Below are positions 1 to 55,559 of a stretch of DNA of 64,000 nucleotides, one piece after another. The notes under the pieces were generated by a model. That model saw only the letters and a list, made by a program, of their open reading frames with translations. It was not told the DNA's origin and did no database searches. Origin of the DNA: Eledone cirrhosa (taxonomy: Eukaryota); the NCBI GenBank assembly GCA_964016885.1, contig OZ024764.1, forward strand, positions 5,766,001 to 5,830,000, read 5' to 3'. The stretch's first letter is position 1. Each line of letters begins with the position of its first letter. The translations under genes were made by a program, and so were the position numbers.

Positions 1-3000
1 GCCTGTCTACAAGGTGTCCCCAGTACACTACGACAGTGAGACATGTAGCCTGTCTACAAGGTGTCCCCAGTACACTACGACAGTGAGACATGGAGCCTGT
101 CTACAAGGTGTCCCCAGTACACTACGACAGCGAGACATGGAGCCTGTCTACAAGGTGTCCCCAGTACACTACGACAGTGAGACATGGAGCCTGTCTACCA
201 TGTGTCCCCAGTACACTACGACAGCGAGACATGGAGCCTGTCTACAAGGTGTCCCCAGTACACTACGACAGTGAGACATGGAGCCTGACTACCATGTGTC
301 CCCAGTACACTACGACAGCGAGACATGGAGCCTGTCTACAAGGTGTCCCCAGTACACTACGACAGTGAGACATGGAGCCTGTCTACAAGGTGTCCCCAGT
401 ACACTACGACAGTGAGACATGGAGCCTGTCTACAAGGTGTCCCCAGTACACTACGACAGTGAGACATGGAGCCTGACTACCATGTGTCCCCAGTACACTA
501 CGACAGCGAGACATGGAGCCTGTCTACAAGGTGTCCCCAGTACACTACGACAGTGAGACATGGAGCCTGTCTACAAGGTGTCCCCAGTACACTACGACAG
601 TGAGACATGGAGCCTGTCTACAAGGTGTCCCCAGTACACTACGACAGTGAGACATGGAGCCTGTCTACAAGGTGTCCCCAGTACACTACGACAGCGAGAC
701 ATGGAGCCTGTCTACAAGGTGTCCCCAGTACACTACGACAGTGAGACATGGAGCCTGTCTACCATGTGTCCCCAGTACACTACGACAGCGAGACATGGAG
801 CCTGTCTACAAGGTGTCCCCAGTACACTACGACAGTGAGACATGGAGCCTGTCTACAAGGTGTCCCCAGTACACTACGACAGTGAGACATGTAGCCTGTC
901 TACAAGGTGTCCCAGTACACTACGACAGCGAGACATGGAGCCTGTCTACAAGGTGTCCCCAGTACACGACAGTGAGACATGGAGCCTGTCTACCATGTGT
1001 CCCCAGTACAATACGACAGTGAGACATGGAGCCTGTCTACAAGGTGTCCCCAGTACACTACGACAGTGAGACATGGAGCCTGTCTACAAGGTGTCCCCAG
1101 TACACTACGACAGTGAGACATGGAGCCTGTCTACAAGGTGTCCCCAGTACACTACGACAGTGAGACATGGAGCCTGTCTACAAGGTGTCCCCAGTACACT
1201 ACGACAGTGAGACATGGAGCCTGTCTACCATGTGTCCCCAGTACACTACGACAGTGAGACATGGAGCCTGTCTACCATGTGTCCCCAGTACACTACGACA
1301 GTGAGACATGGAGCCTGTCTACCATGTGTCTCCAGTACACTACGACAGTGAGACATGGAGCCTGTCTACAAGGTGTCCCCAGTACACTACAACAGTGAGA
1401 CATGTAGCCTGTCTACAAGGTGTCCCCAGTACACTACGACAGTGAGACATGGAGCCTGTCTACAAGGTGTCCCCAGTACACTACGACAGTGAGACATGGA
1501 GCCTGTCTACAAGGTGTCCCCAGTACACTACGACAGTGAGACATGGCGCCTGTCTACAAGGTGTCCTCAGTACACTACGACAGTGAGACATGGAGCCTGA
1601 CTACAAGGTGTCCCCAGTACACTACGACAGTGAGACATGGAGCCTGTCTACCATGTGTCCCCAGTACACTACGACAGTGAGACATGGCGCCTGTCTACAA
1701 GGTGTCCCCAGTACACTACGACAGTGAGACATGTAGCCTGTCTACCATGTGTCCCCAGTACACTACGACAGTGAGACATGGCGCCTGTCTACAAGGTGTC
1801 CCCAGTACACTACGACAGTGAGACATGGAGCCTGTCTACAAGGTGTCCCCAGTACACTACGACAGTGAGACATGGAGCCTGTCTACAAGGTGTCCCCAGT
1901 ACACTACGACAGTGAGACATGGAGCCTGTCTACAAGGTGTCCCCAGTACACTATGACAGTGAGACATGGAGCCTGTCTACCATGTGTCCCCAGTACACTA
2001 CGACAGTGAGACATGTAGCCTGTCTACAAGGTGTCCCCAGTACGCTACGACAGTGAGACATGGAGCCTGTCTACAAGGTGTCCCCAGTACGCTACGACAG
2101 TGAGACATGGAGCCTGTCTACAAGGTGTCCCCAGTACACTACGACAGTGAGACATGTAGCCTGTCTACAAGGTGTCCCCAGTACGTTACGACAGTGAGCC
2201 TGTCTACAAGGTGTCCCCAGTACACTACGACAGTGAGACATGTAGCCTGTCTACAAGGTGTCCCCAGTACGCTACGACAGTGAGACATGGAGCCTGTCTA
2301 CAAGGTGTCCCCAGTACACTACGACAGTGAGACATGGAGCCTGTCTACAAGGTGTCCCCAGTACACTACGACAGTGAGACATGGAGCCTGTCTACAAGGT
2401 GTCCCCAGTACACTACGACAGTGAGACATGTAGCCTGTCTACAAGGTGTCCCCAGTACGCTACGACAGTGAGACATGGAGCCTGTCTACAAGGTGTCCCC
2501 AGTACACTACGACAGTGAGACATGTAGCCTGTCTACAAGGTGTCCCCAGTACACTACGACAGTGAGACATGGAGCCTGTCTACAAGGTGTCCCCAGTACA
2601 CTACGACAGTGAGACATGGAGCCTGTCTACCATGTGTCCCCAGTACACTACGACAGTGAGACATGGAGCCTGACTACAAGGTGTCCCCAGTACACTACAA
2701 CAGTGAGACATGTAGCCTGTCTACCATGTGTCCCCAGTACACTACGACAGTGAGACATGGCGCCTGTCTACAAGGTGTCCTCAGTACACTACGACAGTGA
2801 GACATGGAGCCTGTCTACAAGGTGTCCCCAGTACACTACGACAGTGAGACATGGAGCCTGTCTACAAGGTGTCACCAGTACACTACGACAGTGAGACATG
2901 GAGCCTGTCTACAAGGTGTCCTCAGTACACTACGACAGTGAGACATGGAGCCTGTCTACAAGGTGTCCTCAGTACACTACGACAGTGAGACATGGAGCCT

Positions 3001-6000
3001 GTCTACAAGGTGTCCTCAGTACACTACGACAGTGAGACATGGAGCCTGTCTACAAGGTGTCACCAGTACACTACGACAGTGAGACATGGAGCCTGTCTAC
3101 AAGGTGTCCCCAGTACACTACGACAGCGAGACATGGAGCCTGTCTACAAGGTGTCCCCAGTACACTACAACAGTGAGACATGGAGCCTGTCTACAAGGTG
3201 TCCTCAGTACACTACGACAGTGAGACATGGAGCCTGTCTACAAGGTGTCCCCAGTACACTACAACAGTGAGACATGGAGCCTGTCTACAAGGTGTCCCCA
3301 GTACACTACGACAGTGAGACATGGAGCCTGTCTACCATGTGTCCCCAGTACACTACGACAGTGAGACATGTAGCCTGTCTACAAGGTGTCCCCAGTACAC
3401 TACGACAGTGAGACATGGAGCCTGTCTACAAGGTGTCCCCAGTACACTACGACAGTGAGACATGGAGCCTGTCTACAAGGTGTCCCCAGTACACTACGAC
3501 AGTGAGACATGGAGCCTGTCTACAAGGTGTCCCCAGTACACTACGACAGTGAGACATGGAGCCTGTCTACAAGGTGTCCCCAGTACACTACGACAGTGAG
3601 ACATGTAGCCTGTCTACAAGGTGTCCCCAGTACACTACGACAGTGAGACATGTAGCCTGTCTACAAGGTGTCCCCAGTACACTACGACAGTGAGACATGG
3701 AGCCTGTCTACCATGTGTCCCCAGTACACTACGACAGTGAGACATGGAGCCTGTCTACAAGGTGTCCCCAGTACACTACGACAGTGAGACATGGAGCCTG
3801 ACTACAAGGTGTCCCCAGTACACTACAACAGTGAGACATGTAGCCTGTCTACAAGGTGTCCCCAGTACACTACGACAGTGAGACATGGAGCCTGTCTACC
3901 ATGTGTCCCCAGTACACTACGACAGTGAGACATGGAGCCTGTCTACAAGGTGTCCCCAGTACACTACGACAGTGAGACATGGAGCCTGTCTACCATGTGT
4001 CCCCAGTACACTACGACAGTGAGACATGGAGCCTGTCTACCATGTGTCCCCAGTACACTACGACAGCGAGACATGGAGCCTGTCTACAAGGTGTCCCCAG
4101 TACACGACAGTGAGACATGGAGCCTGTCTACCATGTGTCCCCAGTACAATACGACAGTGAGACATGGAGCCTGTCTACCATGTGTCCCCAGTACACTACG
4201 ACAGTGAGACATGTAGCCTGTCTACAAGGTGTCCCCAGTACACTACAACAGTGAGACATGGAGCCTGTCTACAAGGTGTCCCCAGTACACTACGAGTGAG
4301 ACATGGAGCCTGTCTACAAGGTGTCCCCAGTACACTACGACAGTGAGACATGGAGCCTGTCTACAAGGTGTCCCCAGTACACTACGACAGTGAGACATGG
4401 AGCCTGTCTACAAGGTGTCCCCAGTACACTACAACAGTGAGACATGGAGCCTGTCTACAAGGTGTCCCCAGTACACTACGAGTGAGACATGGAGCCTGTC
4501 TACAAGGTGTCCCCAGTACACTACGACAGTGAGACATGGAGCCTGTCTACAAGGTGTCCCCAGTACACTACGACAGTGAGACATGGAGCCTGTCTACAAG
4601 GTGTCCCCAGTACACTACGACAGTGAGACATGGAGCCTGTCTACAAGGTGTCCCCAGTACACTACGACAGTGAGACATGGAGCCTGTCTACAAGGTGTCC
4701 CCAGTACACTACGACAGCGAGACATGTAGCCTGTCTACAAGGTGTCCCCAGTACACTACGACAGTGAGACATGGAGCCTGACTACAAGGTGGCCCCAGTA
4801 CACTACGACAGTGAGACATGGAGCCTGTCTACAAGGTGTCCCCAGTACACTACGACAGCGAGACATGTAGCCTGTCTACAAGGTGTCCCCAGTACACTAC
4901 GACAGTGAGACATGGAGCCTGACTACAAGGTGTCCCCAGTACACTACGACAGTGAGACATGGAGCCTGTCTACAAGGTGTCCCCAGTACACTACGACAGT
5001 GAGACATGGAGCCTGTCTACAAGGTGTCCCCAGTACACTACGACAGTGAGACATGGAGCCTGTCTACAAGGTGTCCCCAGTACACTACAACAGTGAGACA
5101 TGTAGCCTGTCTACAAGGTGTCCCCAGTACACTACGACAGTGAGACATGGAGCCTGTCTACAAGGTGTCCCCAGTACGCTACGACAGTGAGACATGGAGC
5201 CTGTCTACAAGGTGTCCCCAGTACACTACGACAGCGAGACATGTAGCCTGTCTACAAGGTGTCCCCAGTACACTACGACAGTGAGACATGGAGCCTGTCT
5301 ACAAGGTGTCCCCAGTACACTACGACAGTGAGACATGGAGCCTGTCTACAAGGTGTCCCCAGTACACTACGACAGTGAGACATGGAGCCTGTCTACCATG
5401 TGTCCCCAGTACACTACGACAGCGAGACATGGAGCCTGTCTACAAGGTGTCCCCAGTACACTACGACAGTGAGACATGTAGCCTGTCTACAAGGTGTCCT
5501 CAGTACACTACGACAGTGAGACATGGAGCCTGTCTACAAGGTGTCCCCAGTACACTACGACAGTGAGACATGGAGCCTGTCTACAAGGTGTCCCCAGTAC
5601 ACTACGACAGCGAGACATGGAGCCTGTCTACCATGTGTCCCCAGTACACTACGACAGTGAGACATGGAGCCTGACTACAAGGTGTCCCCAGTACACTACG
5701 ACAGTGAGACATGGAGCCTGTCTACAAGGTGTCCCCAGTACACTACGACAGTGAGACATGGAGCCTGTCTACCATGTGTCCCCAGTACACTACGACAGTG
5801 AGACATGGAGCCTGTCTACAAGGTGTCCCCAGTACACTACGACAGTGAGACATGGAGCCTGTCTACAAGGTGTCCCCAGTACACTACGACAGTGAGACAT
5901 GGAGCCTGTCTACAAGGTGTCCCCAGTACACTACGACAGGGAGACATGGAGCCTGTCTACAAGCTGTCCCCAGTACACTACGACAGTGAGACATGGAGCC

Positions 6001-9000
6001 TGTCTACAAGGTGTCACCAGTACACTACGACAGCGAGACATGGAGCCTGTCTACAAGGTGTCCCCAGTACACTACGACAGTGAGACATGGAGCCTGTCTA
6101 CAAGGTGTCCCCAGTACACTACGACAGTGAGACATGGAGCCTGTCTACCATGTGTTCCCAGTACACTACGACAGTGAGACATGGAGCCTGTCTACAAGGT
6201 GTCACCAGTACACTACGACAGCGAGACATGGAGCCTGTCTACAAGGTGTCCCCAGTACACTACGACAGTGAGACATGGAGCCTGTCTACAAGGTGTCCCC
6301 AGTACACTACGACAGTGAGACATGGAGCCTGTCTACCATGTGTCCCCAGTACACTACGACAGTGAGACATGGAGCCTGTCTACAAGGTGTCACCAGTACA
6401 CTACGACAGCGAGACATGGAGCCTGTCTACAAGGTGTCCCCAGTACACTACAACAGTGAGACATGGAGCCTGTCTACAAGGTGTCCCCAGTACACTATGA
6501 CAGTGAGACATGGAGCCTGTCTACAAGGTGTCCCCAGTACACTACGACAGTGAGACATGGAGCCTGTCTACAAGGTGTCCCCAGTACACTACGACAGTGA
6601 GACATGGAGCCTGTCTACAAGGTGTCCCCAGTACACTACGACAGTGAGACATGTAGCCTGTCTACAAGGTGTCCCCAGTACACTACGACAGTGAGACATA
6701 GCGCCTGTCTACAAGGTGTCCCCAGTACACTACGACAGTGAGACATGGAGCCTGTCTACCATGTGTCCCCAGTACACTACGACAGTGAGACATGGAGCCT
6801 GTCTACAAGGTGTCCCCAGTACACTACGACAGTGAGACATGGAGCCTGACTACAAGGTGTCCCCAGTACACTACAACAGTGAGACATGTAGCCTGTCTAC
6901 AAGGTGTCCCCAGTACACTACGACAGTGAGACATGGAGCCTGTCTACCATGTGTCCCCAGTACACTACGACAGTGAGACATGGAGCCTGTCTACAAGGTG
7001 TCCCCAGTACACTACGACAGTGAGACATGGAGCCTGTCTACCATGTGTCCCCAGTACACTACGACAGTGAGACATGGAGCCTGTCTACCATGTGTCCCCA
7101 GTACACTACGACAGCGAGACATGGAGCCTGTCTACAAGGTGTCCCCAGTACACGACAGTGAGACATGGACCCTGTCTACCATGTGTCCCCAGTACAATAC
7201 GACAGTGAGACATGGAGCCTGTCTACAAGGTGTCCCCAGTACACTACGACAGTGAGACATGGAGCCTGTCTACAAGGTGTCCCCAGTACACTACGACAGT
7301 GAGACATGGAGCCTGTCTACAAGGTGTCCCCAGTACACTACGACAGCGAGACATGTAGCCTGTCTACAAGGTGTCCCCAGTACACTACGACAGTGAGACA
7401 TGGAGCCTGACTACAAGGTGGCCCCAGTACACTACGACAGTGAGACATGGAGCCTGTCTACAAGGTGTCCCCAGTACACTACGACAGCGAGACATGTAGC
7501 CTGTCTACAAGGTGTCCCCAGTACACTACGACAGTGAGACATGGAGCCTGACTACAAGGTGTCCCCAGTACACTACGACAGTGAGACATGGAGCCTGTCT
7601 ACAAGGTGTCCCCAGTACACTACGACAGTGAGACATGGAGCCTGTCTACAAGGTGTCCCCAGTACACTACGACAGTGAGACATGGAGCCTGTCTACCATG
7701 TGTCCCCAGTACACTACGACAGCGAGACATGGAGCCTGTCTACAAGGTGTCCCCAGTACACTACGACAGTGAGACATGTAGCCTGTCTACAAGGTGTCCT
7801 CAGTACACTACGACAGTGAGACATGGAGCCTGTCTACAAGGTGTCCCCAGTACACTACGACAGTGAGACATGGAGCCTGTCTACAAGGTGTCCCCAGTAC
7901 ACTACGACAGTGAGACATGGAGCCTGTCTACAAGGTGTCCCCAGTACACTATGACAGCGAGACATGGAGCCTGTCTACCATGTGTCCCCAGTACACTACG
8001 ACAGTGAGACATGGAGCCTGACTACAAGGTGTCCCCAGTACACTACGACAGTGAGACATGGAGCCTGTCTACAAGGTGTCCCCAGTACACTACGACAGTG
8101 AGACATGGAGCCTGTCTACCATGTGTCCCCAGTACACTACGACAGTGAGACATGGAGCCTGTCTACAAGGTGTCCCCAGTACACTACGACAGTGAGACAT
8201 GTAGCCTGTCTACAAGGTGTCCGCAATACGCTACGACAGTGAGACATGGAGCCTGTCTACAAGGTGTCCCCAGTACACTACGACAGTGAGACATGGAGCC
8301 TGTCTACCATGTGTCCCCAGTACACTACAACAGTGAGACATGGAGCCTGTCTACAAGGTGTCCCCAGTACACTACGACAGTGAGACATGGAGCCTGACTA
8401 CAAGGTGTCCCCAGTACACTACGACAGTGAGACATGTAGCCTGTCTACCATGTGTCCCCAGTACACTACGACAGTGAGACATGGCGCCTGTCTACAAGCT
8501 GTCCCCAGTACACTACGACAGTGAGAACTGGCGCCTGTCTACAAGGTGTCCCCAGTACACTACGACAGTGAGACATGGAGCCTGTCTACAAGGTGTCCCC
8601 AGTACACTACGACAGTGAGACATGGAGCCTGTCTACAAGGTGTCCTCAGTACACTACGACAGTGAGACATGGAGCCTGTCTACAAGGTGTCCCCAGTACA
8701 CTACGACAGTGAGACATGTAGCCTGTCTACCATGTGTCCCCAGTACACTACGACAGTGAGACATGGCGCCTGTCTACAAGCTGTCCCCAGTACACTACGA
8801 CAGTGAGAACTGGCGCCTGTCTACAAGGTGTCCCCAGTACACTACGACAGTGAGACATGGAGCCTGTCTACAAGGTGTCCCCAGTACACTACGACAGTGA
8901 GACATGGAGCCTGTCTACAAGGTGTCCTCAGTACACTACGACAGTGAGACATGGAGCCTGTCTACAAGGTGTCCCCAGTACACTACGATAGTGAGACATG

Positions 9001-9373
9001 GAGCCTGTCTACAAGGTGTCCCCAGTACACTACGACAGTGAGACATGTAGCCTGTCTACAAGGTGTCCCCAGCACACTACGACAGTGAGACATGGAGCCT
9101 GTCTACAAGGTGTCCCCAGTACACTACGACAGTGAGACATGGAGCCTGACTACAAGGTGTCCCCAGTACACTACGACAGTGAGACATGGAGCCTGTCTAC
9201 AAGGTGTCCCCAGTACACTACGACAGTGAGACATGTAGCCTGTCTACAAGGTGTCCCCAGTACACTACGACAGTGAGACATGGAGCCTGACTACAAGGTG
9301 TCCCCAGTACGCTATGACAGTGAGACATGGAGCCTGTCTACAAGGTGTGTCCCCAGTACACTACAACAGTGAG
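1..9373. repeat. 47-bp tandem satellite, about 200 copies, running off the window start
   Basis: Unit GCCTGTCTACAAGGTGTCCCCAGTACACTACGACAGTGAGACATGGA with recurring variants (ACCATG, GACAGCG, ATGTAG). The unit resembles the RTE LINE ORF2 motif VYKACVLSTLLYGSETW. Confidence 0.97.
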
Positions 9374-11261: not shown

Positions 11262-11605
11262 TGGAGGCACATGGCTTAGTGGTTAGAGCATTGGCCTTGC
11301 AATCGAAAGGTTGTGAGTTCAATTCTTAGACCGGGTGATGTGTTGTGTCCTTGAGCAAGACACTTTATTTCACATTGCTCCAGTTTACTCAGCTGTAGAA
11401 ATGAGATGATAGGGACTGGGGTCCCTATCATTCCACTGCAAAGTGGTTGTGGAGGTGCCACGGCAAAAAAGCACCCAGCACTCACTGTAAATGAGGTTGG
11501 TGTTAGGAAGGGCATCCAGCTGTAGAAATCAAGCCAGAATCAGTTCCCGTCCCACCCTTGCAAGCAGGGAAAAGCGGATGTAAAATGATGATGATGATGA
11601 TGATA
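11262..11605 (+). mobile_element. tRNA-derived SINE (family 1) with (ATG)n tail
   Basis: A box TGGCTTAGTGG, B box GAGTTCAATTC, central TCCTTGAGCAAGACACT segment, 3' (ATG)n. Near-identical copies at 29218 and 59487. Confidence 0.9.
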
Positions 11606-11679
11606 TATATATATATATATATAATATTATAATGAAATGACAGGAGGCTGGACTTGTGTAAATCCTTGAAAGGTTTATT

Positions 11680-11737
11680 ATACTATGATCATTTCAATGA
11701 CCGGGTTCCGTATGAATCCGGTGATATCATCAGGTAT
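11680..11737 (-). ncRNA. Minimal type I hammerhead ribozyme motif
   Basis: Minus strand: ATAC-CTGATGA-[stem II ACCGG/CCGGT]-GAAA-TGATCA(palindrome)-TA-GTAT. Stem I is ATAC/GTAT. Confidence 0.7.
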
Positions 11738-11767
11738 TCAAAATATAATAAATGAATGTAATAGATA

Positions 11768-11913
11768 AAATCCATGGGGCTGAAAATCAAAGACCAGAGG
11801 ACGACCGACCATCTAGCATTTTCCACTTTAGCCAGTTGAGGGCGACCGGCTAAAGTGGAAGATGCTAGATGGTCGGTTGTCCTCCGGTCTTTGATTTTCA
11901 GCCCTATGGATTT
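11768..11913. repeat. Fold-back inverted repeat, arms about 65 bp
   Basis: TCCATGGGGCTGAAAATCAAAGACC...CACTTTAGCC / GGCTAAAGTG...GGTCTTTGATTTTCAGCCCTATGGA. Confidence 0.9.
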
Positions 11914-12139
11914 TTTTTTTTTTAGACCAGAATTAGCCGTCGAAACGGCTTGAGCTCAGCCGTCGGGGTCCTACTCGTTCCTATATATATATATATAATC
12001 ATCATCCTCGTTTAATGTAAATCTTCCACTTTTGTTCCATTTGATGCGGGAATGGTTGGGAGACTGTGTCTCACTTGTACGGAAGTGTCTCTGGCAGGTT
12101 TTTTACAGCTGGATGCCCTTTCTAACACCATATATATAT

Positions 12140-12268
12140 ATATAGAAATGACTTCTACAGGACTAGAACTGTTTCAATCGAAGGAAATCATCAGGAAACC
12201 TGACTTGCATTACAATACTGATGATTCCCTTCGGAACAGTTCTAGTCCTGTAGAAGCCATTTCTATAT
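12140..12268. repeat. Fold-back inverted repeat containing a decayed hammerhead core
   Basis: ATAGAAATGACTTCTACAGGACTAGAACTG / CAGTTCTAGTCCTGTAGAAGCCATTTCTAT. CTGATGA...GAAAC or GGAAC in each arm, but stem I is not recoverable. Confidence 0.8.
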
Positions 12269-12359
12269 TAAATTTGTTGTTTACACTCTACTAATGTATT
12301 GAGTACCTTACTTAATGTGATTACCCCCGATTGAGAAAGAGAGAAAAAGAAGACGTTAC

Positions 12360-12446
12360 CTTCACCATATTGGTTACTCCCAGGGATATAAGCTTCTGTT
12401 AAGACTGAAGCATCACCAGCACCATCACTTGAACTGGCATCCATTG
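12360..12446 (-). CDS. Candidate coding exon of an unidentified second gene (MDASSSDGAGDASVLTEAYIPGSNQYGE-G)
   Basis: Strong polypyrimidine acceptor TTTTCTTCTTTTGTCTTTCAAGTTTTCAG, ATG at 12444-12442, donor G|GTAACG. Unique balanced-composition sequence amid repeats. Confidence 0.55.
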
Positions 12447-12611
12447 CTGAAAACTTGAAAGACAAAAGAAGAAAAAATATATATATATATATATACAAAA
12501 GTTTTATTTAAAATTGTTGGGTTACAACAAGTAAATATTTTATAACTGATATAAAGCACTCGACAAGTATTTGGAGTAGATATACGATATTAAACAAATG
12601 GAAACTATATA

Positions 12612-12808
12612 AAAATATGGCATGCCTTCGTCAGATAAAATACAATATATAACCAGTTTTATAAATAATTTTGACGTACCATAAATATAGCGACCATTAA
12701 TTAAGCCAGCCTCCTACATTAATGGTCGCTATATTTATGGTACGTCAAAATTATTTATAAAACTGGTTATATATTGTATTTTATCTGACGAAGGCATGCC
12801 ATATTTTT
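12612..12808. repeat. Perfect inverted repeat (arms about 88 bp) of a Penelope-like terminal repeat
   Basis: AAAATATGGCATGCCTTCGTCAG...GCGACCATTA / TAATGGTCGC...CTGACGAAGGCATGCCATATTTT. Confidence 0.9.
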
Positions 12809-12842
12809 AATATGGTATCCCTGAAATATGTATAATGAAATA
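12777..12842 (+). ncRNA. Minimal type I hammerhead ribozyme motif, intact core
   Basis: TATTTTAT-CTGACGA-AGGCATGCCATA..TATGGTATCCCT-GAAA-TATGTATA-ATGAAATA. Stem I has 8 bp, stem II is long, predicted cleavage after AUA. Confidence 0.85.
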
Positions 12843-13026
12843 AATATGGTTTTATAAATATAGTTTCCATTTGTTTAATATCGTATATATATATATATGC
12901 AAAAGTTCTATTTAAAATTGTTGGGATACAAGTAAATATTTTTATAACTGATATAAAGCACTCGACAAGTATTTGGAGTAGATATACAATATTAATAAAT
13001 GGAAACTATATTTATAAAACCATATT

Positions 13027-13091
13027 TATTTCATTATACATATTTCAGGGATACCAAATTAAATTATGGTATGCCTTCATCAGACAAAATA
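13027..13091 (-). ncRNA. Minimal type I hammerhead ribozyme motif, intact core
   Basis: Minus strand: TATTTTGT-CTGATGA-AGGCATACCA..TGGTATCCCT-GAAA-TATGTATA-ATGAAATA. Confidence 0.85.
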
Positions 13092-13332
13092 CAATATATA
13101 ACAGTTTTACAAATAAGCATTGACGTACCCTTTCAAAATGCGACCATTACTTTTGGAGGACATCAGGATAGTGGTTTGTTTATATTATTTTAGTAAGTCT
13201 TATTGTAATTGTCCTTAACACTAAGACTTACTAAAATAATATAAACAAACCACTATCCTGATGTCCTCCAAAAGTAATGGTCGCATTTTGAAAGGGTATG
13301 TCAATGCTTATTTGTAAAACTGATATATATTG

Positions 13333-13397
13333 TATTTTGTCTGATGAAGGCATACCATAATTTAAATTGGTATCCTTGAAATATGCATAATGAAATA
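13333..13397 (+). ncRNA. Minimal type I hammerhead ribozyme motif, intact core
   Basis: TATTTTGT-CTGATGA-AGGCATACCA..TGGTATCCTT-GAAA-TATGCATA(palindrome)-ATGAAATA. Confidence 0.85.
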
Positions 13398-13436
13398 AAT
13401 ATGGTTTTATAAATATAGTTTCCATTTATTAATATC

Positions 13437-13485
<49 letters not shown>

Positions 13486-13516
13486 CAAATGGAAACTATA
13501 TTTATAAAACCATATT

Positions 13517-13581
13517 TATTTCATTATACATATTTCAAGGACACCAAGTTAAATTATGGTGTGCTTTCATAAGATAAAATA
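13517..13581 (-). ncRNA. Hammerhead motif with mutated core (CTTATGA), likely inactive
   Basis: Minus strand: TATTTTAT-CTTATGA-AAGCACACCA..TGGTGTCCTT-GAAA-TATGTATA-ATGAAATA. Stem II shows a compensatory T-A to C-G pair relative to sibling copies. Confidence 0.7.
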
Positions 13582-13756
13582 TAATATAGAGCAGTTTTAT
13601 AGATAAATATTGACATACCCTTAAAGAATGCAACCATTACTGTTGGAAGCTCCCGGATATTGTGGTTATAACTTTATTAATACTATTATGTAAATTTGTA
13701 TTGGATATTTTTAAATAAGCCGTTGGGTTACAGAGAAAGAGAGAGAGATATTAATA

Positions 13757-13792
<36 letters not shown>

Positions 13793-13829
13793 TATTAATA
13801 AAATAGATGTCCTTTTGATCAATTACATT

Positions 13830-13876
13830 TTATTATACATATTTCGGATGTACAACAGTACGTCCTCATCAGACAA
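13830..13876 (-). ncRNA. Minimal type I hammerhead ribozyme motif, intact core
   Basis: Minus strand: TTGT-CTGATGA-GGACGTAC(TGTT)GTACATCC-GAAA-TATGTATA-ATAA. Confidence 0.75.
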
Positions 13877-13899
13877 CGACCACAGGAAACAAGCACTAC

Positions 13900-14062
13900 C
13901 AAACTCTGGGAAGGGTCTGTAGAAACAGTAGACAGCTTTTGCTACCTAGGTGACCGAATTAGAGCAGAGGTGGGTGTTCTGAAAGTATAGTAACCAGGGT
14001 AAGAACAGGATGGAAGAAGTTCAGGGAGCTACTGCCACTGCTAGCTGCAAAAGGCTTTTCCC
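13900..14062 (+). mobile_element. RTE-type LINE ORF2 fragment
   Basis: Encodes SVETVDSFCYLGD...RVRTGWKKFRELLPLLAAKG with a frameshift. Homologous to 31560-31700. Confidence 0.75.
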
Positions 14063-14107
14063 CTTAATATATATATATATTTTTTTTTTTATATATATAT
14101 ATATATA

Positions 14108-14688
14108 TAGAGAAAATTGAGGTTGGTAATGGCACATGGAATATATAAGAGACAGAATACTTTTTTATGAAAAAACATAATTTTATAAGGTAAGGAAATA
14201 ATAAAGGGTATAAAAAATGAGCGGTTTCGATGGGTCTGCAAAAGCCATCTTTTCAAATGTTGATTAATATTAAGAACAATTAATAATACGAAGAGTTAAA
14301 ATTTGAGATTTGAAAATTCAAGTATAAAATACATTGTGGGATTTCATAGCAGTTTTCATCTAGGTAGCAACAACAGGTTCACTGCTGTGTCTACCAGAAA
14401 GGGACACAGCAGTCAACCTGTTGTTGCTACCTAGATGAAAACTGCTATGAAATCCCACAATGTATTTTATACTTGAATTTTCAAATCTCAAATTTTAACT
14501 CTTCGTATTATTAATTTTTCTTAATATTAATCAACATTTGAAAAGATGGCTTTTGCAGACCCATCGAAACCGCTCATTTTTTATACCCTTTATTATTTCC
14601 TTACCTTATAAAATTATGTTTTTTCACAAAAAAGTATTCTGTCTCTTATATATTCCATGTGCCATTACCAACCTCAATTTTCTCTATA
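14108..14688. repeat. Near-perfect inverted repeat (arms about 285 bp), each arm with a decayed hammerhead
   Basis: AGAGAAAATTGAGGTTGGTAATGG... / ...CCATTACCAACCTCAATTTTCTCT. Motif TTGAAAA-GATGG..CCATC-GAAA-CCGCTC at 14538-14575 and its mirror. Confidence 0.92.
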
Positions 14689-14858
14689 ACCTTCGTTTTG
14701 TGTAGAAAATTACACTTTTCATATATATATATATGTAGGAGGTGAGTTTTATTGTAGTACAATAAAGCAATGCAGATATCGGATAAGAAGCACTCTACAG
14801 TTTGTAGGACTGGAGTATACATAATATAAGATCAAAAGATGGTTAAAGGAGTTCCATG

Positions 14859-14929
14859 TATTTTATTATGCGCATTTCAAAAACAAACATCATCATGCAA
14901 TAATATTTGTGTTTTCATCAGATAAAACA
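14859..14929 (-). ncRNA. Minimal type I hammerhead ribozyme motif, intact core
   Basis: Minus strand: TGTTTTAT-CTGATGA-AAACACAAATATTAT..ATGATGTTTGTTTTT-GAAA-TGCGCA(palindrome)-TA-ATAAAATA. Confidence 0.8.
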
Positions 14930-14984
14930 GGAGAACATGATATGAAGGCTAAAAAACACTTGTGGATAGTGCAGTTTTAAATCA

Positions 14985-15030
<46 letters not shown>

Positions 15031-15176
15031 AAAATTTGGTAGAAATATCCAAGGGTAACAGCACTCCGTCCATAGGATGTGTTTAGTGTAATTACAACAG
15101 TGACATAAACAGCTACTTAAGGTTCGATGGGTTCTGGACCCTAATTGAGGATGGCATAGGAGTAATAGATGATTAT

Positions 15177-15226
15177 GACAGGCTGAGTTGGGTAGCCCAC
15201 AACCCAGCGGAACTTAAGTACCTGTT
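15177..15226 (+). ncRNA. Decayed hammerhead motif within an imperfect inverted repeat (about 15085-15240)
   Basis: GACAGG-CTGA(deleted TGA)-GTTGGGT..ACCCAGC-GGAA-CTTAAG(palindrome)-TA-CCTGTT. All three stems are retained. Confidence 0.55.
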
Positions 15227-15233
15227 TATATCA

Positions 15234-15276
<43 letters not shown>

Positions 15277-15292
15277 CATATATACATAAATA

Positions 15293-15334
<42 letters not shown>

Positions 15335-15392
15335 TACATAAATATATACGATGATATTAAATAAATGGAAACTATATTTATAAAACCATATT

Positions 15393-15457
15393 TATTTTAT
15401 TATATATATTTCAAGGGAAACCAAGACAACATTGGTACGCTTTCATCAGATAAAATA
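15393..15457 (-). ncRNA. Minimal type I hammerhead ribozyme motif, intact core
   Basis: Minus strand: TATTTTAT-CTGATGA-AAGCGTACCAA..TTGGTTTCCCTT-GAAA-TATATATA-ATAAAATA. Confidence 0.78.
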
Positions 15458-15523
15458 CAAAGTTTGTTTTATAAATTATTTGTCGGACTTCCAACAAATT
15501 AAATACCACTTCTACTTTATACA

Positions 15524-15554
<31 letters not shown>

Positions 15555-15625
15555 GACCACAAAAATATATACACACTTCGACAGCATTCTAATAAATATT
15601 GATTATAGGTAATCAAAGTGTTTAC

Positions 15626-15671
<46 letters not shown>

Positions 15672-15740
15672 GTAAACACTACTGCCAAGACTGGAATTGA
15701 ACCATCAGCACAGTTGAGGTATATCATCCATCAATTTATG

Positions 15741-15806
15741 TATTTTATCTGATGAAGACGTACTGAGGAAACAGCACAGTACCTCCAAAATATATATAAT
15801 AAAATA
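15741..15806 (+). ncRNA. Hammerhead motif with GAAA to AAAA core mutation
   Basis: TATTTTAT-CTGATGA-AGACGTACTG..CAGTACCTCC-AAAA-TATATATA-ATAAAATA. Confidence 0.7.
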
Positions 15807-48156: not shown

Positions 48157-48225
48157 CTGGAAGTGAGAGAGGGACTAATGTTAGGCATTAACTAGCGTTA
48201 GACACTGGCTTATTGACATTTTAAG

Positions 48226-51200
48226 GTGGTGGTGGTGATAGTAGTGGTGGTGGTGGTAGTGGTGGTGGTAGTAGTGGTGGTGGTAGTGGTGGTGGTGATA
48301 GTAGTGGTGGTGGTGGTAGTGGTGGTGGTGGTGGTGGTAGTGGTGGTGGTAGTGGTGGTGGTGGTAGTAGTGGTGGTGGTAGTGGTGGTGGTGGTAGTAG
48401 TGGTGGTGGTAGTAGTGGTGGTGGTAGTGGTGGTGGTGGTAGTAGTGGTGGTGGTAGTAGTGATGGTGGTAGTAGTGATGGTGGTAGTGGTGGTGGTGGT
48501 AGTGGTGGTGGTGGTAGTGGTGGTGGTAGTGGTGGTGGTGGTAGTAGTGGTGGTGGTAGTAGTGATGGTGGTAGTAGTGGTGGTGATAGTAGTGGTGGTG
48601 ATAGTAGTGGTGGTGATAGTAGTGGTGGTGGTAGTGGTGGTGGTGGTGGTAGTAGTGATGGTGGTAGTGGTGATGGTGGTAGTAGTGGTGGTGATAGTAG
48701 TGGTGGTGGTAGTAGTGGTGGTGGTAATAGTGGTGGTGGTAGTGGTGGTACTAGTGGTAGTGGTGGTGGTGGTAGTAGTGATGGTGGTAGTGGTGGTGGT
48801 GGTAGTGGTGGTGGTGGTAGTAGTGATGGTGGTAGTGGTGGTGGTGGTAGTAGTGATGGTGGTAGTAGTGGTGGTGGTAGTAGTGGTGGTGATAGTAGTG
48901 GTGGTGGTAGTAGTGGTGGTGGTAGTAGTGATGGTGGTAGTAGTGGTGGTGGTAGTGGTGGTGGTGGTAGTGGTGATGGTGGTAGTGGTGGTGGTGGTAG
49001 TGGTGATGGTGGTAGTAGTGATGGTGGTAGTAGTGATGGTGATAGTGGTGGTGGTGGTGGTAGTGGTGGTGGTAGTGGTGGTGGTGGTAGTAGTGATGGT
49101 GATAGTAGTGGTGGTGATAGTAGTGGTGGTGGTAGTAGTGGTGGTGGTAGTGGTGGTGGTGGTAGTGGTGGTGGTGGTAGTAGTGATGGTGGTAGTAGTG
49201 GTGGTGGTAGTAGTGGTGGTGGTGGTAGTGGTGGTGGTAGTGGTGGTGGTGGTAGTAGTGATGGTGATAGTAGTGGTGGTGATAGTAGTGGTGGTGATAG
49301 TAGTGGTGGTGGTAGTAGTGATGGTGGTAGTAGTGATGGTGGTAGTGGTGGTGGTGGTAGTAGTGGTGGTGGTAGTAGTGATGGTGGTAGTAGTGGTGGT
49401 GATAGTAGTGGTGGTGGTAATAGTGATGGTGGTAGTAGTGATGGTGGTAGTGGTGGTGGTGGTAGTAGTGGTGGTGGTAGTAGTGATGGTGGTAGTAGTG
49501 GTGGTGATAGTAGTGGTGGTGGTGGTAGTGGTGGTGGTAATAGTGATGGTGGTAGTAGTGATGGTGGTAGTGGTGGTGGTGGTAGTAGTGGTAGTGGTAG
49601 TAGTGATGGTGGTAGTAGTGGTGGTGATAGTAGTGGTGGTGGTGGTAGTGGTGGTGGTAATAGTGATGGTGGTAGTAGTGATGGTGGTAGTGGTGGTGGT
49701 GGTAGTAGTGATGGTGGTAGTAGTGGTGGTGATAGTAGTGGTGGTGGTGGTAGTGGTGGTGATAGTGGTGATGGTGGTAGTGGTGATGGTGGTAGTGGTG
49801 GTGGTGGTAGTAGTGATGGTGGTAGTGGTGGTGGTGGTAGTAGTGATGGTGGTAGTGGTGGTGGTGGTAGTAGTGATGGTGGTAGTAGTGATGGTGGTAG
49901 TGGTGGTGATAGTGGTGATGGTGGTAGTGGTGATGGTGGTAGTGGTGGTGGTGATAGTAGTAATGGTGATAGTAGTGGTGGTGGTAGTAGTGATGGTGGT
50001 AGTGGTGGTGGTGGTAGTGGTGATGGTGGTAGTGGTGGTGGTGGTAGTGGTGGTGATAGTGGTGATGGTGGTAGTGGTGATGGTGGTAGTGGTGGTGGTG
50101 ATAGTAGTAATGGTGATAGTAGTGGTGGTGGTAGTAGTGATGGTGGTAGTGGTGGTGGTGGTAGTGGTGATGGTGGTAGTGGTGGTGGTGGTAGTAGTGG
50201 TGATAGTAGTGATGGTGGTAGTGGTGGTGGTGGTAGTGGTGGTGGTGGTAGTAGTAATGGTGATAGTAGTGGTGGTGGTAGTGGTGGTGATAGTGGTGAT
50301 GGTGGTAGTGGTGATGGTGGTAGTGGTGGTGGTGATAGTAGTAGTGGTGGTGGTGTTGATGATAGTAGTGATGGTGATAGTGGTAGTGATGGTGGTAGTG
50401 TTGGTGGTAATAGTAGTGATGGTGGTGGTGACGATGGTGATAGTAGTGGTGGTGGTGGTGGTGTTGATGATAATAAATATAGTGGTAGTGGTAGTGATGG
50501 TGGTAGTGTTGGTGGTAGTGGTAGCGATGGTGGTAGTGTTGGTACTAGTGTTGGTATTAGTGGTAGTGTTGGTGGTAGTGTTGGTACTAGTGGTAGTGTT
50601 GGTACTAGTGGTAGTGTTGGTGGTAGTGTTGGTACTAGTGGTAGTGTTGGTGGTAGTGTTGGTACTAGTGGTAGTGTTGGTATTAGTGGTAGTGTTGGTG
50701 GTAGTGTTGGTACTAGTGGTAGTGTTGGTGGTAGTGTTGGTACTAGTGGTAGTGTTGGTGGTAGTGTTGGTACTAGTGGTAGTGTTGGTGGTAGTGTTGG
50801 TACTAGTGGTAGTGTTGGTATTAGTGGTAGTGTTGGTGGTAGTGTTGGTACTAGTGGTAGTGTTGGTGGTAGTGTTGGTACTAGTGGTAGTGTTGGTACT
50901 AGTGGTAGTGTTGGTGGTAGTGTTGGTACTAGTGGTAGTGTTGGTGGTAGTGTTGGTACTAGTGGTAGTGTTGGTGGTAGTGTTGGTACTAGTGGTAGTG
51001 TTGGTATTAGTGGTAGTGTTGGTGGTAGTGTTGGTACTAGTGGTAGTGTTGGTGGTAGTGTTGGTACTAGTGGTAGTGTTGGTGGTAGTGTTGGTACTAG
51101 TGGTAGTGTTGGTGGTAGTGTTGGTACTAGTGGTAGTGTTGGTGGTAGTGTTGGTACTAGTGGTAGTGTTGGTATTAGTGGTAGTGTTGGTGGTAGTGTT

Positions 51201-54200
51201 GGTATTAGTGGTAGTGTTGGTGGTAGTGTTGGTACTAGTGGTAGTGTTGGTGGTAGTGTTGGTACTAGTGGTAGTGTTGGTGGTAGTGTTGGTACTAGTG
51301 GTAGTGTTGGTGGTAGTGTTGGTACTAGTGGTAGTGTTGGTATTAGTGGTAGTGTTGGTGGTAGTGTTGGTACTAGTGGTAGTGTTGGTATTAGTGGTAG
51401 TGTTGGTGGTAGTGTTGGTACTAGTGGTAGTGTTGGTATTAGTGGTAGTGTTGGTGGTAGTGTTGGTACTAGTGGTAGTGTTGGTGGTAGTGTTGGTGGT
51501 AGTGTTGGTACTAGTGGTAGTGTTGGTGGTAGTGTTGGTACTAGTGGTAGTGTTGGTGGTAGTGTTGGTACTAGTGGTAGTGTTGGTGGTAGTGGTAGTG
51601 TTGGTGGTAGTGTTGGTACTAGTGGTAGTGTTGGTATTAGTGGTAGTGTTGGTGGTAGTGGTAGTGTTGGTACTAGTGGTAGTGTTGGTGGTAGTGTTGG
51701 TACTAGTGGTAGTGTTGGTGGTAGTGTTGGTACTAGTGGTAGTGTTGGTACTAGTGGTAGTGTTGGTGGTAGTGTTGGTACTAGTGGTAGTGTTGGTGGT
51801 AGTGTTGGTACTAGTGGTAGTGTTGGTGGTAGTGTTGGTACTAGTGGTAGTGTTGGTGGTAGTGTTGGTACTAGTGGTAGTGTTGGTGGTAGTGTTGGTG
51901 GTAGTGGTAGTGTTGGTGGTAGTGTTGGTACTAGTGGTAGTGTTGGTGGTAGTGTTGGTACTAGTGGTAGTGTTGGTGGTAGTGTTGGTACTAGTGGTAG
52001 TGTTGGTGGTAGTGTTGGTGGTAGTGGTAGTGTTGGTGGTAGTGTTGGTACTAGTGGTAGTGTTGGTATTAGTGGTAGTGTTGGTGGTAGTGGTAGTGTT
52101 GGTACTAGTGGTAGTGTTGGTGGTAGTGTTGGTACTAGTGGTAGTGTTGGTGGTAGTGTTGGTACTAGTGGTAGTGTTGGTACTAGTGGTAGTGTTGGTG
52201 GTAGTGTTGGTACTAGTGGTAGTGTTGGTGGTAGTGTTGGTACTAGTGGTAGTGTTGGTGGTAGTGTTGGTACTAGTGGTAGTGTTGGTGGTAGTGTTGG
52301 TACTAGTGGTAGTGTTGGTGGTAGTGTTGGTACTAGTGGTAGTGTTGGTGGTAGTGTTGGTACTAGTGGTAGTGTTGGTGGTAGTGTTGGTATTAGTGGT
52401 AGTGTTGGTGGTAGTGGTAGTGTTGGTATTAGTGGTAGTGTTGGTACTAGTGGTAGTGTTGGTACTAGTGGTAGTGTTGGTACTAGTGGTAGTGTTGGTG
52501 GTAGTGTTGGTACTAGTGGTAGTGTTGGTGGTAGTGTTGGTACTAGTGGTAGTGTTGGTGGTAGTGTTGGTACTAGTGGTAGTGTTGGTGGTAGTGTTGG
52601 TACTAGTGGTAGTGTTGGTGGTAGTGTTGGTGGTAGTGGTAGTGTTGGTGGTAGTGTTGGTACTAGTGGTAGTGTTGGTGGTAGTGTTGGTACTAGTGGT
52701 AGTGTTGGTGGTAGTGTTGGTACTAGTGGTAGTGTTGGTGGTAGTGTTGGTGGTAGTGGTAGTGTTGGTGGTAGTGTTGGTACTAGTGGTAGTGTTGGTA
52801 TTAGTGGTAGTGTTGGTGGTAGTGGTAGTGTTGGTACTAGTGGTAGTGTTGGTGGTAGTGTTGGTACTAGTGGTAGTGTTGGTGGTAGTGTTGGTACTAG
52901 TGGTAGTGTTGGTACTAGTGGTAGTGTTGGTGGTAGTGTTGGTACTAGTGGTAGTGTTGGTGGTAGTGTTGGTACTAGTGGTAGTGTTGGTGGTAGTGTT
53001 GGTACTAGTGGTAGTGTTGGTGGTAGTGTTGGTACTAGTGGTAGTGTTGGTGGTAGTGTTGGTACTAGTGGTAGTGTTGGTGGTAGTGTTGGTACTAGTG
53101 GTAGTGTTGGTGGTAGTGTTGGTATTAGTGGTAGTGTTGGTGGTAGTGGTAGTGTTGGTATTAGTGGTAGTGTTGGTACTAGTGGTAGTGTTGGTACTAG
53201 TGGTAGTGTTGGTACTAGTGGTAGTGTTGGTGGTAGTGTTGGTACTAGAGGTAGTGTTGGTGGTAGTGTTGGTACTAGTGGTAGTGTTGGTGGTAGTGTT
53301 GGTACTAGTGGTAGTGTTTGTGGTAGTGTTGGTACTAGTGGTAGTGTTGGTGGTAGTGTTGGTATTAGTGGTAGTGTTGGTGGTAGTGGTAGTGTTGGTA
53401 TTAGTGGTAGTGTTGGTACTAGTGGTAGTGTTGGTACTAGTGGTAGTGTTGGTGGTAGTGTTGGTACTAGTGGTAGTGTTGGTACTAGTGGTAGTGTTGG
53501 TGGTAGAGTTGGTACTAGTGGTAGTGTTGGTACTAGTGGTAGTGTTGGTGGTAGTGTTGGTACTAGTGGTAGTGTTGGTGGTAGTGTTGGTACTAGTGGT
53601 AGTGTTGGTGGTAGTGTTGGTGGTAGTGTTGGTACTAGTGGTAGTGTTGGTGGTAGTGTTGGTACTAGTGGTAGTGTTGGTGGTAGTGTTGGTACTAGTG
53701 GTAGTGTTGGTGGTAGTGTTGGTACTAGTGGTAGTGTTGGTGGTAGTGTTGGTACTAGTGGTAGTGTTGGTGGTAGTGTTGGTACTAGTGGTAGTGTTGG
53801 TACTAGTGGTAGTGTTGGTACTAGTGGTAGTGTTGGTGGTAGTGTTGGTACTAGTGGTAGTGTTGGTATTAGTGGTAGTGTTGGTGGTAGTGGTAGTGTT
53901 GGTACTAGTGGTAGTGTTGGTACTAGTGGTAGTGTTGGTACTAGTGGTAGTGTTGGTGGTAGTGTTGGTACTAGTGGTAGTGTTGGTGGTAGTGTTGGTA
54001 CTAGTGGTAGTGTTGGTGGTAGTGTTGGTACTAGTGGTAGTGTTGGTGGTAGTGTTGGTACTAGTGGTAGTGTTGGTGGTAGTGTTGGTACTAGTGGTAG
54101 TGTTGGTGGTAGTGTTGGTATTAGTGGTAGTGTTGGTGGTAGTGGTAGTGTTGGTATTAGTGGTAGTGTTGGTGGTAGTGTTGGTACTAGTGGTAGTGTT

Positions 54201-55552: not shown

Positions 55553-55559
55553 TACCTAC

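What the first reader, a model, noticed from the sequence alone, without database searches (positions are those of the whole stretch)
11680..15806. Stem III covaries as different palindromes, the signature of dimeric hammerheads
Seen: the segment between GAAA and the cleavage site differs among copies yet stays self-complementary: TGATCA, TGCGCA, TATATA, ATATGCATA region, TATGTA (G-U), CTTAAG. Stem II also shows a compensatory pair (CATACCA/TGGTAT versus CACACCA/TGGTGT). Known: minimal PLE hammerheads with tiny palindromic stem III cleave as dimers. Inference: structure was selected in the source elements, and the palindrome may act as a family-specific pairing code.
Basis: partly seen in the sequence, partly recalled or inferred. 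Interest (0 to 1): 0.7.

Follow-up and report, generated by a model that had tools for sequence, protein, structure and literature searches.

The report
Dimer-type hammerheads of Penelope-like jumping genes
These are broken end-pieces of Penelope-like jumping genes carrying a small hammerhead RNA motif whose self-complementary third stem likely lets two copies pair and cut each other; that design is already published, and because different families share or cross-match palindromes it is not a family code.

Summary
Seven have intact cores. The families are large (41,673, 5,595 and 492 exact pattern hits versus 2, 0 and 0 in controls). Full-length elements carry the same hammerhead on both sides of the ORF, 3.7 kb apart. 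Self-complementarity holds across families (23 of 24 arm pairs) and is strand-asymmetric (centre T-G 25,474, C-A 458), which points to selection on RNA in the source elements. The 'family pairing code' is not supported. Any two different perfect palindromes fail to cross-pair by arithmetic (0 of 2,016), yet 16 of 45 observed groups do cross-pair, and two families (GAAC/GGAC, CCGC) are not palindromic. Palindromic helix III, covariation and dimer cleavage are in print (PMC4209133), and varied palindromes of Hydra-clade hammerheads are tabulated (PMC8557442, File S2). This scan reported the same thing before, in this genome and others. Cleavage was not tested.

The parts
11680..11737 (-). Hammerhead, TGATCA family; core CTGATGA at 11733, stem I 4 bp, palindrome 11686-11691; element runs about 11624-11915 with an internal inversion
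   Evidence: family 5,595 hits vs 0; same motif 5' of a full Hydra-type ORF in L253
12163..12245 (.). Inverted pair of hammerhead-like cores (-12194, +12218) followed by CAGTTC; no palindrome and no stem I in register; another repeat family
12610..12809 (.). Inverted repeat (92-nt arms, 100%) with a truncated core at -12634
12777..12842 (+). Hammerhead, intact core CTGACGA, stem I 8 bp, TATGTA (U-G centre)
12979..13445 (.). Inverted duplication (228-nt arms, 96%) holding the -13083 and +13341 hammerheads; folds as one long hairpin (-335.5 kcal/mol) that would bury both
13027..13091 (-). Hammerhead, intact core, stem II CATACCA/TGGTAT, TATGTA
13333..13397 (+). Hammerhead, intact core, TATGCA (A-C mismatch in register; private change)
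13517..13581 (-). Hammerhead relic, core CTTATGA (G5 lost), stem II CACACCA/TGGTGT, TATGTA
13830..13876 (-). Hammerhead, intact core, GGACGTAC subfamily, TATGTA; 5' side cut off by an RTE-like LINE fragment, stem I 4 bp left
14217..14258 (-). U3-A8 core variant (TTGAAAA), stem II GATGG/CCATC, loop CCGC (CCGG in 8 of 18 copies seen), in the 286-nt inverted arm 14106-14391
14536..14577 (+). Mirror copy of the U3-A8 variant, in arm 14403-14688
14859..14929 (-). Hammerhead, intact core, TGCGCA family, stem I 8 bp, long stem II; element end about 14721-14990; homodimer folds as a double hammerhead
15105..15235 (.). Old inverted element of the CTTRAG family; + arm 15178-15225 has a shortened core and GGAA, the mirror arm keeps only CTTAAG (15116-15121)
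15393..15457 (-). Hammerhead, intact core, AAGCGTACC subfamily, TATATA
15741..15806 (+). Hammerhead relic, G12 lost (AAAA), TATATA 15791-15796

Best explanation
The region is a pile-up of 5'-truncated, often inverted 3' ends (pseudo-LTRs) of several Hydra-type Penelope-like retrotransposon families lying between (TA)n runs, each ending in a type I hammerhead motif whose palindromic stem III likely forms only between two copies, so that the pair would cut the element RNA. Shown: the motifs, their family sizes, their place 3' of an RT + GIY-YIG ORF, direct-repeat pairs flanking full ORFs, and self-complementarity kept across families. Inferred: in a read-through transcript of a tandem element the upstream and downstream hammerheads, identical by descent, swap arms (8-bp stem III, hybrid stem I) and each cuts the other after UA, releasing unit-length RNA; selection acted only in the master elements, which drifted among any self-pairing sequences, passing through U-G wobbles; the scattered copies decay neutrally and most are caged in long hairpins by their own inverted twin.
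For: Pattern counts 41,673 vs 2, 5,595 vs 0, 492 vs 0. [quoted passage not shown] A TGCGCA-type hammerhead lies 860-1,100 nt after the ORF end on the same strand at 24 of 36 ORF ends listed. Hammerhead-ORF-hammerhead direct repeats: L093 (TGCGCA, 3,709 nt apart) and L269 (TATATA, 3,676 nt); TGATCA, TATGTA and CTTAAG motifs also lie next to Hydra-type ORF pieces. Across 10 flank-defined clusters 21 of 24 arm pairs are WC and 23 of 24 WC/GU, null mean 7.2, 0 of 100,000 shuffles. Centre T-G 25,474 vs C-A 458; CTTGAG 32 vs CTCAAG 1 of the first 100 rows (my tally). The central pair cannot form in a monomer (no loop). Unconstrained cofold of the TGCGCA copy gives the double hammerhead, 12.1 kcal/mol below two monomers. 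Dimer and trimer constructs, not monomers, cleave in vitro in PMC4209133.
Against: No cleavage or expression data here. The double hammerhead was the lowest-energy dimer in only 2 of 13 window copies folded. Two families are not palindromic: GAAC/GGAC (16 copies) and CCGC (8 of 18 copies). The usual G10.1-C11.1 pair is rare (6 of 202), and reported activity of such motifs is low. The large T-G counts rest on few founder events (two lineages). In one search two of five measures were not above shuffles (153/500 and 412/500). Rfam and Pfam gave no hit, so the family calls rest on motifs and on tblastn.
Confidence: 0.82

Rival explanations
1. The palindrome is a family-specific pairing code, selected so that hammerheads of different families do not cut each other.
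For: TGCGCA and TAYRTA groups have interchangeable 8-bp stems I, so the palindrome alone separates them (heteroduplex -0.1 or +5.7 vs homoduplex -10.5 kcal/mol). TGATCA was invariant in 40 of 40 copies, but these were fetched by a pattern that fixed it.
Against: 0 of 2,016 pairs of different perfect hexamer palindromes can cross-pair, so exclusion needs no selection; the observed groups cross-pair in 16 of 45 pairs. TATATA, TATGTA and CTAG are reused by groups with other stems. Single families hold two forms (CTTAAG/CTTGAG, TATGTA/TATATA). In Hydra magnipapillata five published families share actt-t-aagt (PMC8557442 File S2). A partner in cis is identical by descent.
Confidence: 0.06
2. The motif cleaves as a monomer with a 2-bp stem III and 4-nt loop, helped by a protein; inner palindromy is incidental.
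For: GAAC/GGAC and CCGC families lack full palindromy; most window copies do not fold into the active dimer by energy alone.
Against: Inner positions are complementary in all hexamer families and only the wobble-compatible change amplified; a monomer min-HHR did not cleave in PMC4209133.
Confidence: 0.07
3. The palindromes are DNA-level products (template-switch correction, CpG decay, a DNA-binding site) with no RNA selection.
For: The region is full of long DNA inverted repeats; TACGTA/TATGTA/TATATA and CTCGAG/CTTGAG/CTTAAG are linked by CpG-type changes.
Against: DNA processes treat both strands alike, as seen for decay of TGCGCA (TACGCA about 180, TGCGTA about 157, estimated), but TATGTA outnumbers TACATA by roughly 300 to 1 (96 of 100 rows of 25,474 vs 16 of 100 rows of 458); the palindrome sits exactly between GAAA and UH with stems I and II around it.
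Confidence: 0.04

Closest known systems
Minimal and small-palindromic-helix-III type I hammerheads in pLTRs of metazoan PLEs (Cervera and De la Pena 2014, PMC4209133; read: first 20,000 of 32,700 characters, supplement parts 1-2 of 3)
   Same: CUGANGA/GAAA/UH core, palindromic 15.2-16.2 and loop 3, families full of covariation, long helix II, dispersed truncated copies, opposite-strand pairs 100-700 bp apart, U3-A8 core variant, dimer model.
   Different: Here mostly 6-nt palindromes, stem I up to 8 bp, first stem II pair usually A-U, U-U or G-U rather than G-C, and a fixed C-Y mismatch at the fourth step of stem II that I did not see described in the parts read.
Hydra-clade PLEs and their hammerheads, incl. 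Hydra-1_Obim (Craig et al. 2021, PMC8557442; read: passages, supplement part 2 of 59 and search hits)
   Same: RT with DKT, CxCX5C linker, CxxC and CxH around the nuclease, (TA)n targets, inverted 5'-truncated copies; File S2 lists stem III palindromes that differ between families of one genome and T-T at 10.1/11.1.
   Different: The listed octopus motif (acca-a-tggt) is another family; published Hydra stems III are mostly odd-length with one central base; RWK reads RWI/RWT here.
Small hammerhead variants of PLEs that cleave as dimers (Lunse, Weinberg, Breaker 2017, PMC5785218; not held: seen only as a citation and summary in review PMC6765202, passages)
   Same: Short palindromic stem III, dimer cleavage, PLE link, as summarised in the review.
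   Different: Could not be compared in detail; it may already treat matched versus mismatched palindromes.
Metazoan non-LTR retrozymes (PMC7229834, search listing only; bioRxiv 10.64898/2026.07.22.740005, parts 1-2 of 5)
   Same: Type I hammerheads working in pairs, PLE-related.
   Different: Retrozymes are head-to-tail tandem repeats; these copies are dispersed or inverted ends of ORF-bearing elements.

Membership tests
PLE minimal/palindromic type I hammerhead | Core CUGANGA ... GAAA ... UH with stems I and II | tested here: met
   7 of 11 hexamer copies intact; 58 vs 0 in reversed control
PLE minimal/palindromic type I hammerhead | Self-complementary stem III/loop 3 | tested here: met
   10 of 11 in window; 23 of 24 arm pairs over 10 clusters; exceptions GAAC/GGAC, CCGC
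PLE minimal/palindromic type I hammerhead | Located in pLTRs flanking an RT-EN ORF | tested here: met
   L093, L269, 24 of 36 ORF ends; no ORF piece in the window itself
PLE minimal/palindromic type I hammerhead | G10.1-C11.1 closing pair (typical, not universal) | tested here: not met
   G-C in 6 of 202; published Hydra-clade motifs often have T-T there too
PLE minimal/palindromic type I hammerhead | Cleavage as dimer, not monomer | not testable with these tools
   Only folding: double hammerhead is the lowest-energy dimer in 2 of 13 copies
Hydra clade of PLEs | DKT; CxCX5C linker; CxxC and CxH motifs; C-terminal GIY-YIG | tested here: met
   Residues 123, 658, 758, 786 and 679 ff. of the 799-aa ORF of the TGCGCA family
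Hydra clade of PLEs | N-terminal RWK motif | tested here: inconclusive
   RLRWI/RLRWT in this family; VRWKT in the L131 ORF
Hydra clade of PLEs | Insertion into (TA)n | tested here: met
   16 (TA)5+ runs between the pieces in 11.4-16.0 kb; same in loci
Hydra clade of PLEs | Groups with Hydra in an RT tree | not tested
Non-LTR retrozyme | Head-to-tail tandem units each with a hammerhead | tested here: not met
   No such array in the region; copies are inverted or dispersed
Rfam hammerhead families | Covariance-model match | tested here: not met
   No hammerhead among 58 matches at E<=1
   16 of 45 group pairs cross-pair; reuse of TATATA, TATGTA, CTAG

The most novel reading that the evidence does not exclude
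Stem I and stem III together form a two-part address that lets these hammerheads pair in trans: transcribed stubs among the more than 100,000 copies could cut RNAs of compatible Penelope-like families, and the split of TGCGCA from TAYRTA (same stem I, exclusive palindromes) was an escape from such cross-cutting, with the fixed C-Y mismatch in stem II as the switch a protein uses to allow cleavage.
Probability: 0.06. Interest if true: 0.6.

Novelty: new member of a known kind. Interest (0 to 1): 0.15.

Why it matters
As it stands it is a clean example of a published design: PLE hammerheads made to work in pairs. What it adds is small: a strand-asymmetry argument (wobble forms amplified, mismatch forms only at decay level) that the constraint is on RNA and acted in master elements, and a simple reason why palindrome diversity is not a code. 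If trans pairing between copies were real, a genome with about 10^5 such stubs would carry a ribozyme-based way for retroelement families to interfere with each other, which would be new.

Tried and rejected
Rfam scan: no hammerhead hit. Pfam scan of two full ORFs: 0 families at E<=0.1. First guess of a Naiad element dropped: the nuclease is C-terminal and the motifs fit Hydra. Canonical core + CTTAAG gave 14 hits vs 10 control; the family is real but mostly has an 8-nt core CTGAATGA or CTGAAGAA. TACGCA looked amplified in a small sample (4 of 100) but is at decay level genome-wide (41 of 100 rows of 440). Upstream extension of TATGTA copies within 1.4 kb found no ORF; wider stretches did. The descriptor misses the TGATCA family (two mismatches in stem II) and the U3-A8 family; 10 singleton clusters (5 self-complementary, 5 not) were left out of the shuffle test; 5 of the 73 stretches were chosen beside the window or around a known copy. 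Offsets for +15183 and +15749 were wrong and corrected. Sequencing runs: no RNA holder listed. Literature searches for an octopus hammerhead paper, for heterodimer/palindrome specificity and for a helix II mismatch showed nothing on a pairing code in the listings; Lunse et al. 2017 could not be read, so absence from print is not established.
Full report
1. What is in the sequence. A scan for CTGANGA on both strands and a structure-aware table find, between 11,680 and 15,806, eleven segments of the form GAAA-hexamer-TA (or relics of it). Intact cores: -11733 (TGATCA), +12785 (TATGTA), -13083 (TATGTA), +13341 (TATGCA), -13872 (TATGTA), -14921 (TGCGCA), -15449 (TATATA). Damaged: -13573 (CTTATGA; TATGTA), +15749 (AAAA; TATATA), +15183 (shortened core, GGAA; CTTAAG) and its mirror arm (CTTAAG only). 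Six hexamers are perfect palindromes, four have a central U-G, and TATGCA has an A-C mismatch in register; its inverted twin and 28 of 29 other nearest loci have TATGTA. The pieces lie between (TA)n runs, and several form long inverted repeats (286, 228, 92-nt arms). The 12979-13445 pair folds into a single hairpin of -335.5 kcal/mol, which would bury both hammerheads. Rfam has no hammerhead match.

2. What the pieces are. The window is in a 3.0-Gb animal genome; the species was not determined (earlier notes of the scan call it octopus-like). The motifs are ends of large repeat families: 41,673 exact hits for the ATAAAAT-tail pattern against 2 for the reversed control, 5,595 against 0 for TGATCA, 492 against 0 for the CTTRAG family. 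Loci of the TGCGCA family hold a 799-aa ORF with RLRWI, DKT, GIYRDD, CNCPIKNKC (CxCX5C), a GIY-YIG-type nuclease, CNLC and CLH. These are the marks given for the Hydra clade of Penelope-like elements (PMC8557442, passages); Pfam gave no hit and no tree was made. At 24 of 36 ORF ends listed, a hammerhead follows 860-1,100 nt downstream on the same strand. L093 has hammerhead-ORF-hammerhead in direct orientation 3,709 nt apart, both TGCGCA; L269 has the same with TATATA, 3,676 nt apart, around a frameshifted ORF. TGATCA (L253), TATGTA (L265, L266) and CTTAAG (L257, L264) motifs also lie beside related ORF pieces. The window itself has no ORF piece: it holds truncated 3' ends only.

3. Is the covariation real? 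In 73 stretches (730 kb; 5 of them chosen near the window or a known copy) a descriptor that leaves stem III free found 58 motifs and none in the reversed sequence. Over all loci, 240 distinct motifs fell into 20 flank-defined clusters; in the 10 with two or more copies, 21 of 24 arm pairs were Watson-Crick and 23 of 24 WC or G-U, against a null mean of 7.2 and 0 of 100,000 shuffles. The clusters are partly related, the largest merges TGCGCA with TAYRTA, and 10 singletons (5 self-complementary, 5 not) were left out. Forms seen: CG, CTAG, TGCA, CATG, CAATG, CCACTGG, TATATA, TATGTA, TGCGCA, CTTAAG/CTTGAG, plus TGATCA. Exceptions: GAAC/GGAC (16 copies) and CCGC (8 of 18 copies of the U3-A8 family).

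4. RNA or DNA, and when? A central T-G keeps pairing in RNA; its mirror C-A does not, while DNA mutation makes both alike. Genome-wide the T-G class has 25,474 hits and the C-A class 458. By my tally of the first 100 rows of each, the T-G class is 96 TATGTA, and the C-A class is 82 TGCACA, 16 TACATA, 2 TGCATA. In the unrelated CTTRAG family CTTGAG is 32 and CTCAAG 1 of 100 rows. By contrast single changes of TGCGCA are even-handed: TACGCA (mismatch) 41 of 100 rows of 440, TGCGTA (wobble) 39 of 100 rows of 403. The large counts come from few founders (two lineages), so this is support, not a p-value.

5. Mechanism. Shown in print: single minimal PLE hammerheads do not cleave, dimers and trimers do, weakly (PMC4209133); the review PMC6765202 (passages) ties this to tandem PLE layout. 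Inferred here: a transcript through a tandem element brings two identical motifs together; the palindromes form an 8-bp stem III, stem I forms between the 5' arm of one and the 3' arm of the other, and each core cuts the partner after UA. Unconstrained cofolding gives this structure for the TGCGCA copy (12.1 kcal/mol below two monomers) and the CTTAAG relic, but for the other 11 of 13 copies other dimers were lower. No expression data were available.

6. The code idea. Different perfect palindromes can never fully cross-pair (0 of 2,016), so exclusion between families is automatic. The observed hexamer groups cross-pair in 16 of 45 pairs; TATATA pairs with TATGTA at -3.2 kcal/mol, better than TATGTA with itself (-2.2); TATATA, TATGTA and CTAG recur with different stems I and II. 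Specificity, where it exists, comes from stem I and stem III together. One case is left open: TGCGCA and TAYRTA share stem I and differ only in the palindrome. Drift explains it equally well.

7. Known or new. Palindromic helix III, covariation, opposite-strand pairs and the U3-A8 variant are described in PMC4209133; Perreault et al. (PMC3088659, passages) already noted palindromic stem III/loop III in repeat-type hammerheads; File S2 of PMC8557442 lists Hydra-clade hammerheads with different palindromes in one genome and shared ones between families, and includes an octopus element. Lunse et al. 2017 was not readable. The scan reported the same reading in this genome and others. Verdict: real, ordinary; new members of a known kind; interest 0.15. 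The least explained feature is a side one: stem II position 4 is unpaired in 202 of 202 T....A-type motifs (C-C 130, C-T 66) while its neighbours pair in 96-100% and swap pair types; the scan has noted this elsewhere too.

Noticed in passing
window 11680-15806 and loci: Stem II position 4 from the core is never paired in 202 motifs of the ATAAAA, ATGAAA, GCAG and GTAT tail groups (C-C 130, C-T 66, C-A 3, T-T 2, A-A 1), while positions 2, 3, 5, 6, 7 pair in 96-100% with compensatory swaps; absent from the CTTRAG and CTAG families. Possibly a tertiary, metal or protein contact.
   Followed up: partly
window 15105-15235; L156-L194: The CTTRAG family mostly has an 8-nt core CTGAATGA (an insertion after A6) or CTGAAGAA; an A6a insertion was reported as low-activity in PMC3088659. 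It amplified all the same.
   Followed up: partly
window 14106-14688; L273-L287: 286-nt inverted arms hold a U3-A8 core variant with only 2 bp of stem I; loop CCGG in 8 and CCGC in 8 of 18 copies; no ORF link found. One distant copy (C28) is 100% identical over 141 bases to the window arm.
   Followed up: partly
window 11920-11997: Very common short repeat end (96 hits in 54 loci) with a GCCGTC-GAAA-CGGC hairpin, usually inverted and set in (TA)n like a PLE end, but no CTGANGA core was seen upstream.
   Followed up: partly
window 12140-12334: Another inverted PLE-like end family (33 loci) with core, short stem II and GAAA but CAGTTC instead of a palindrome and no clear stem I.
   Followed up: partly
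L205, L207, L218 and others: Abundant hammerhead family with GAAC or GGAC in stem III; a dimer would have tandem A-A or G-A pairs in the centre.
   Followed up: no
window 13880-14064: Fragment of an RTE-like LINE ORF (VETVDSFCYLGD...) abutting and truncating the -13872 hammerhead; family name recalled, not tested.
   Followed up: no
window 11272-11635: tRNA-related SINE-like repeat (weak Rfam tRNA match 11272-11329; many copies in loci).
   Followed up: no
window 1-9373 and elsewhere: Long minisatellite arrays, e.g. 200 copies of a 47-nt unit at 1-9373 and a GGT-rich array at 48225-55553.
   Followed up: no
L147-L149 (C8:18.197-18.207 Mb): Three copies 4.4-4.6 kb apart of a CTTAAG hammerhead with canonical core inside a repeated unit that also holds LINE ORF pieces.
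   Followed up: no
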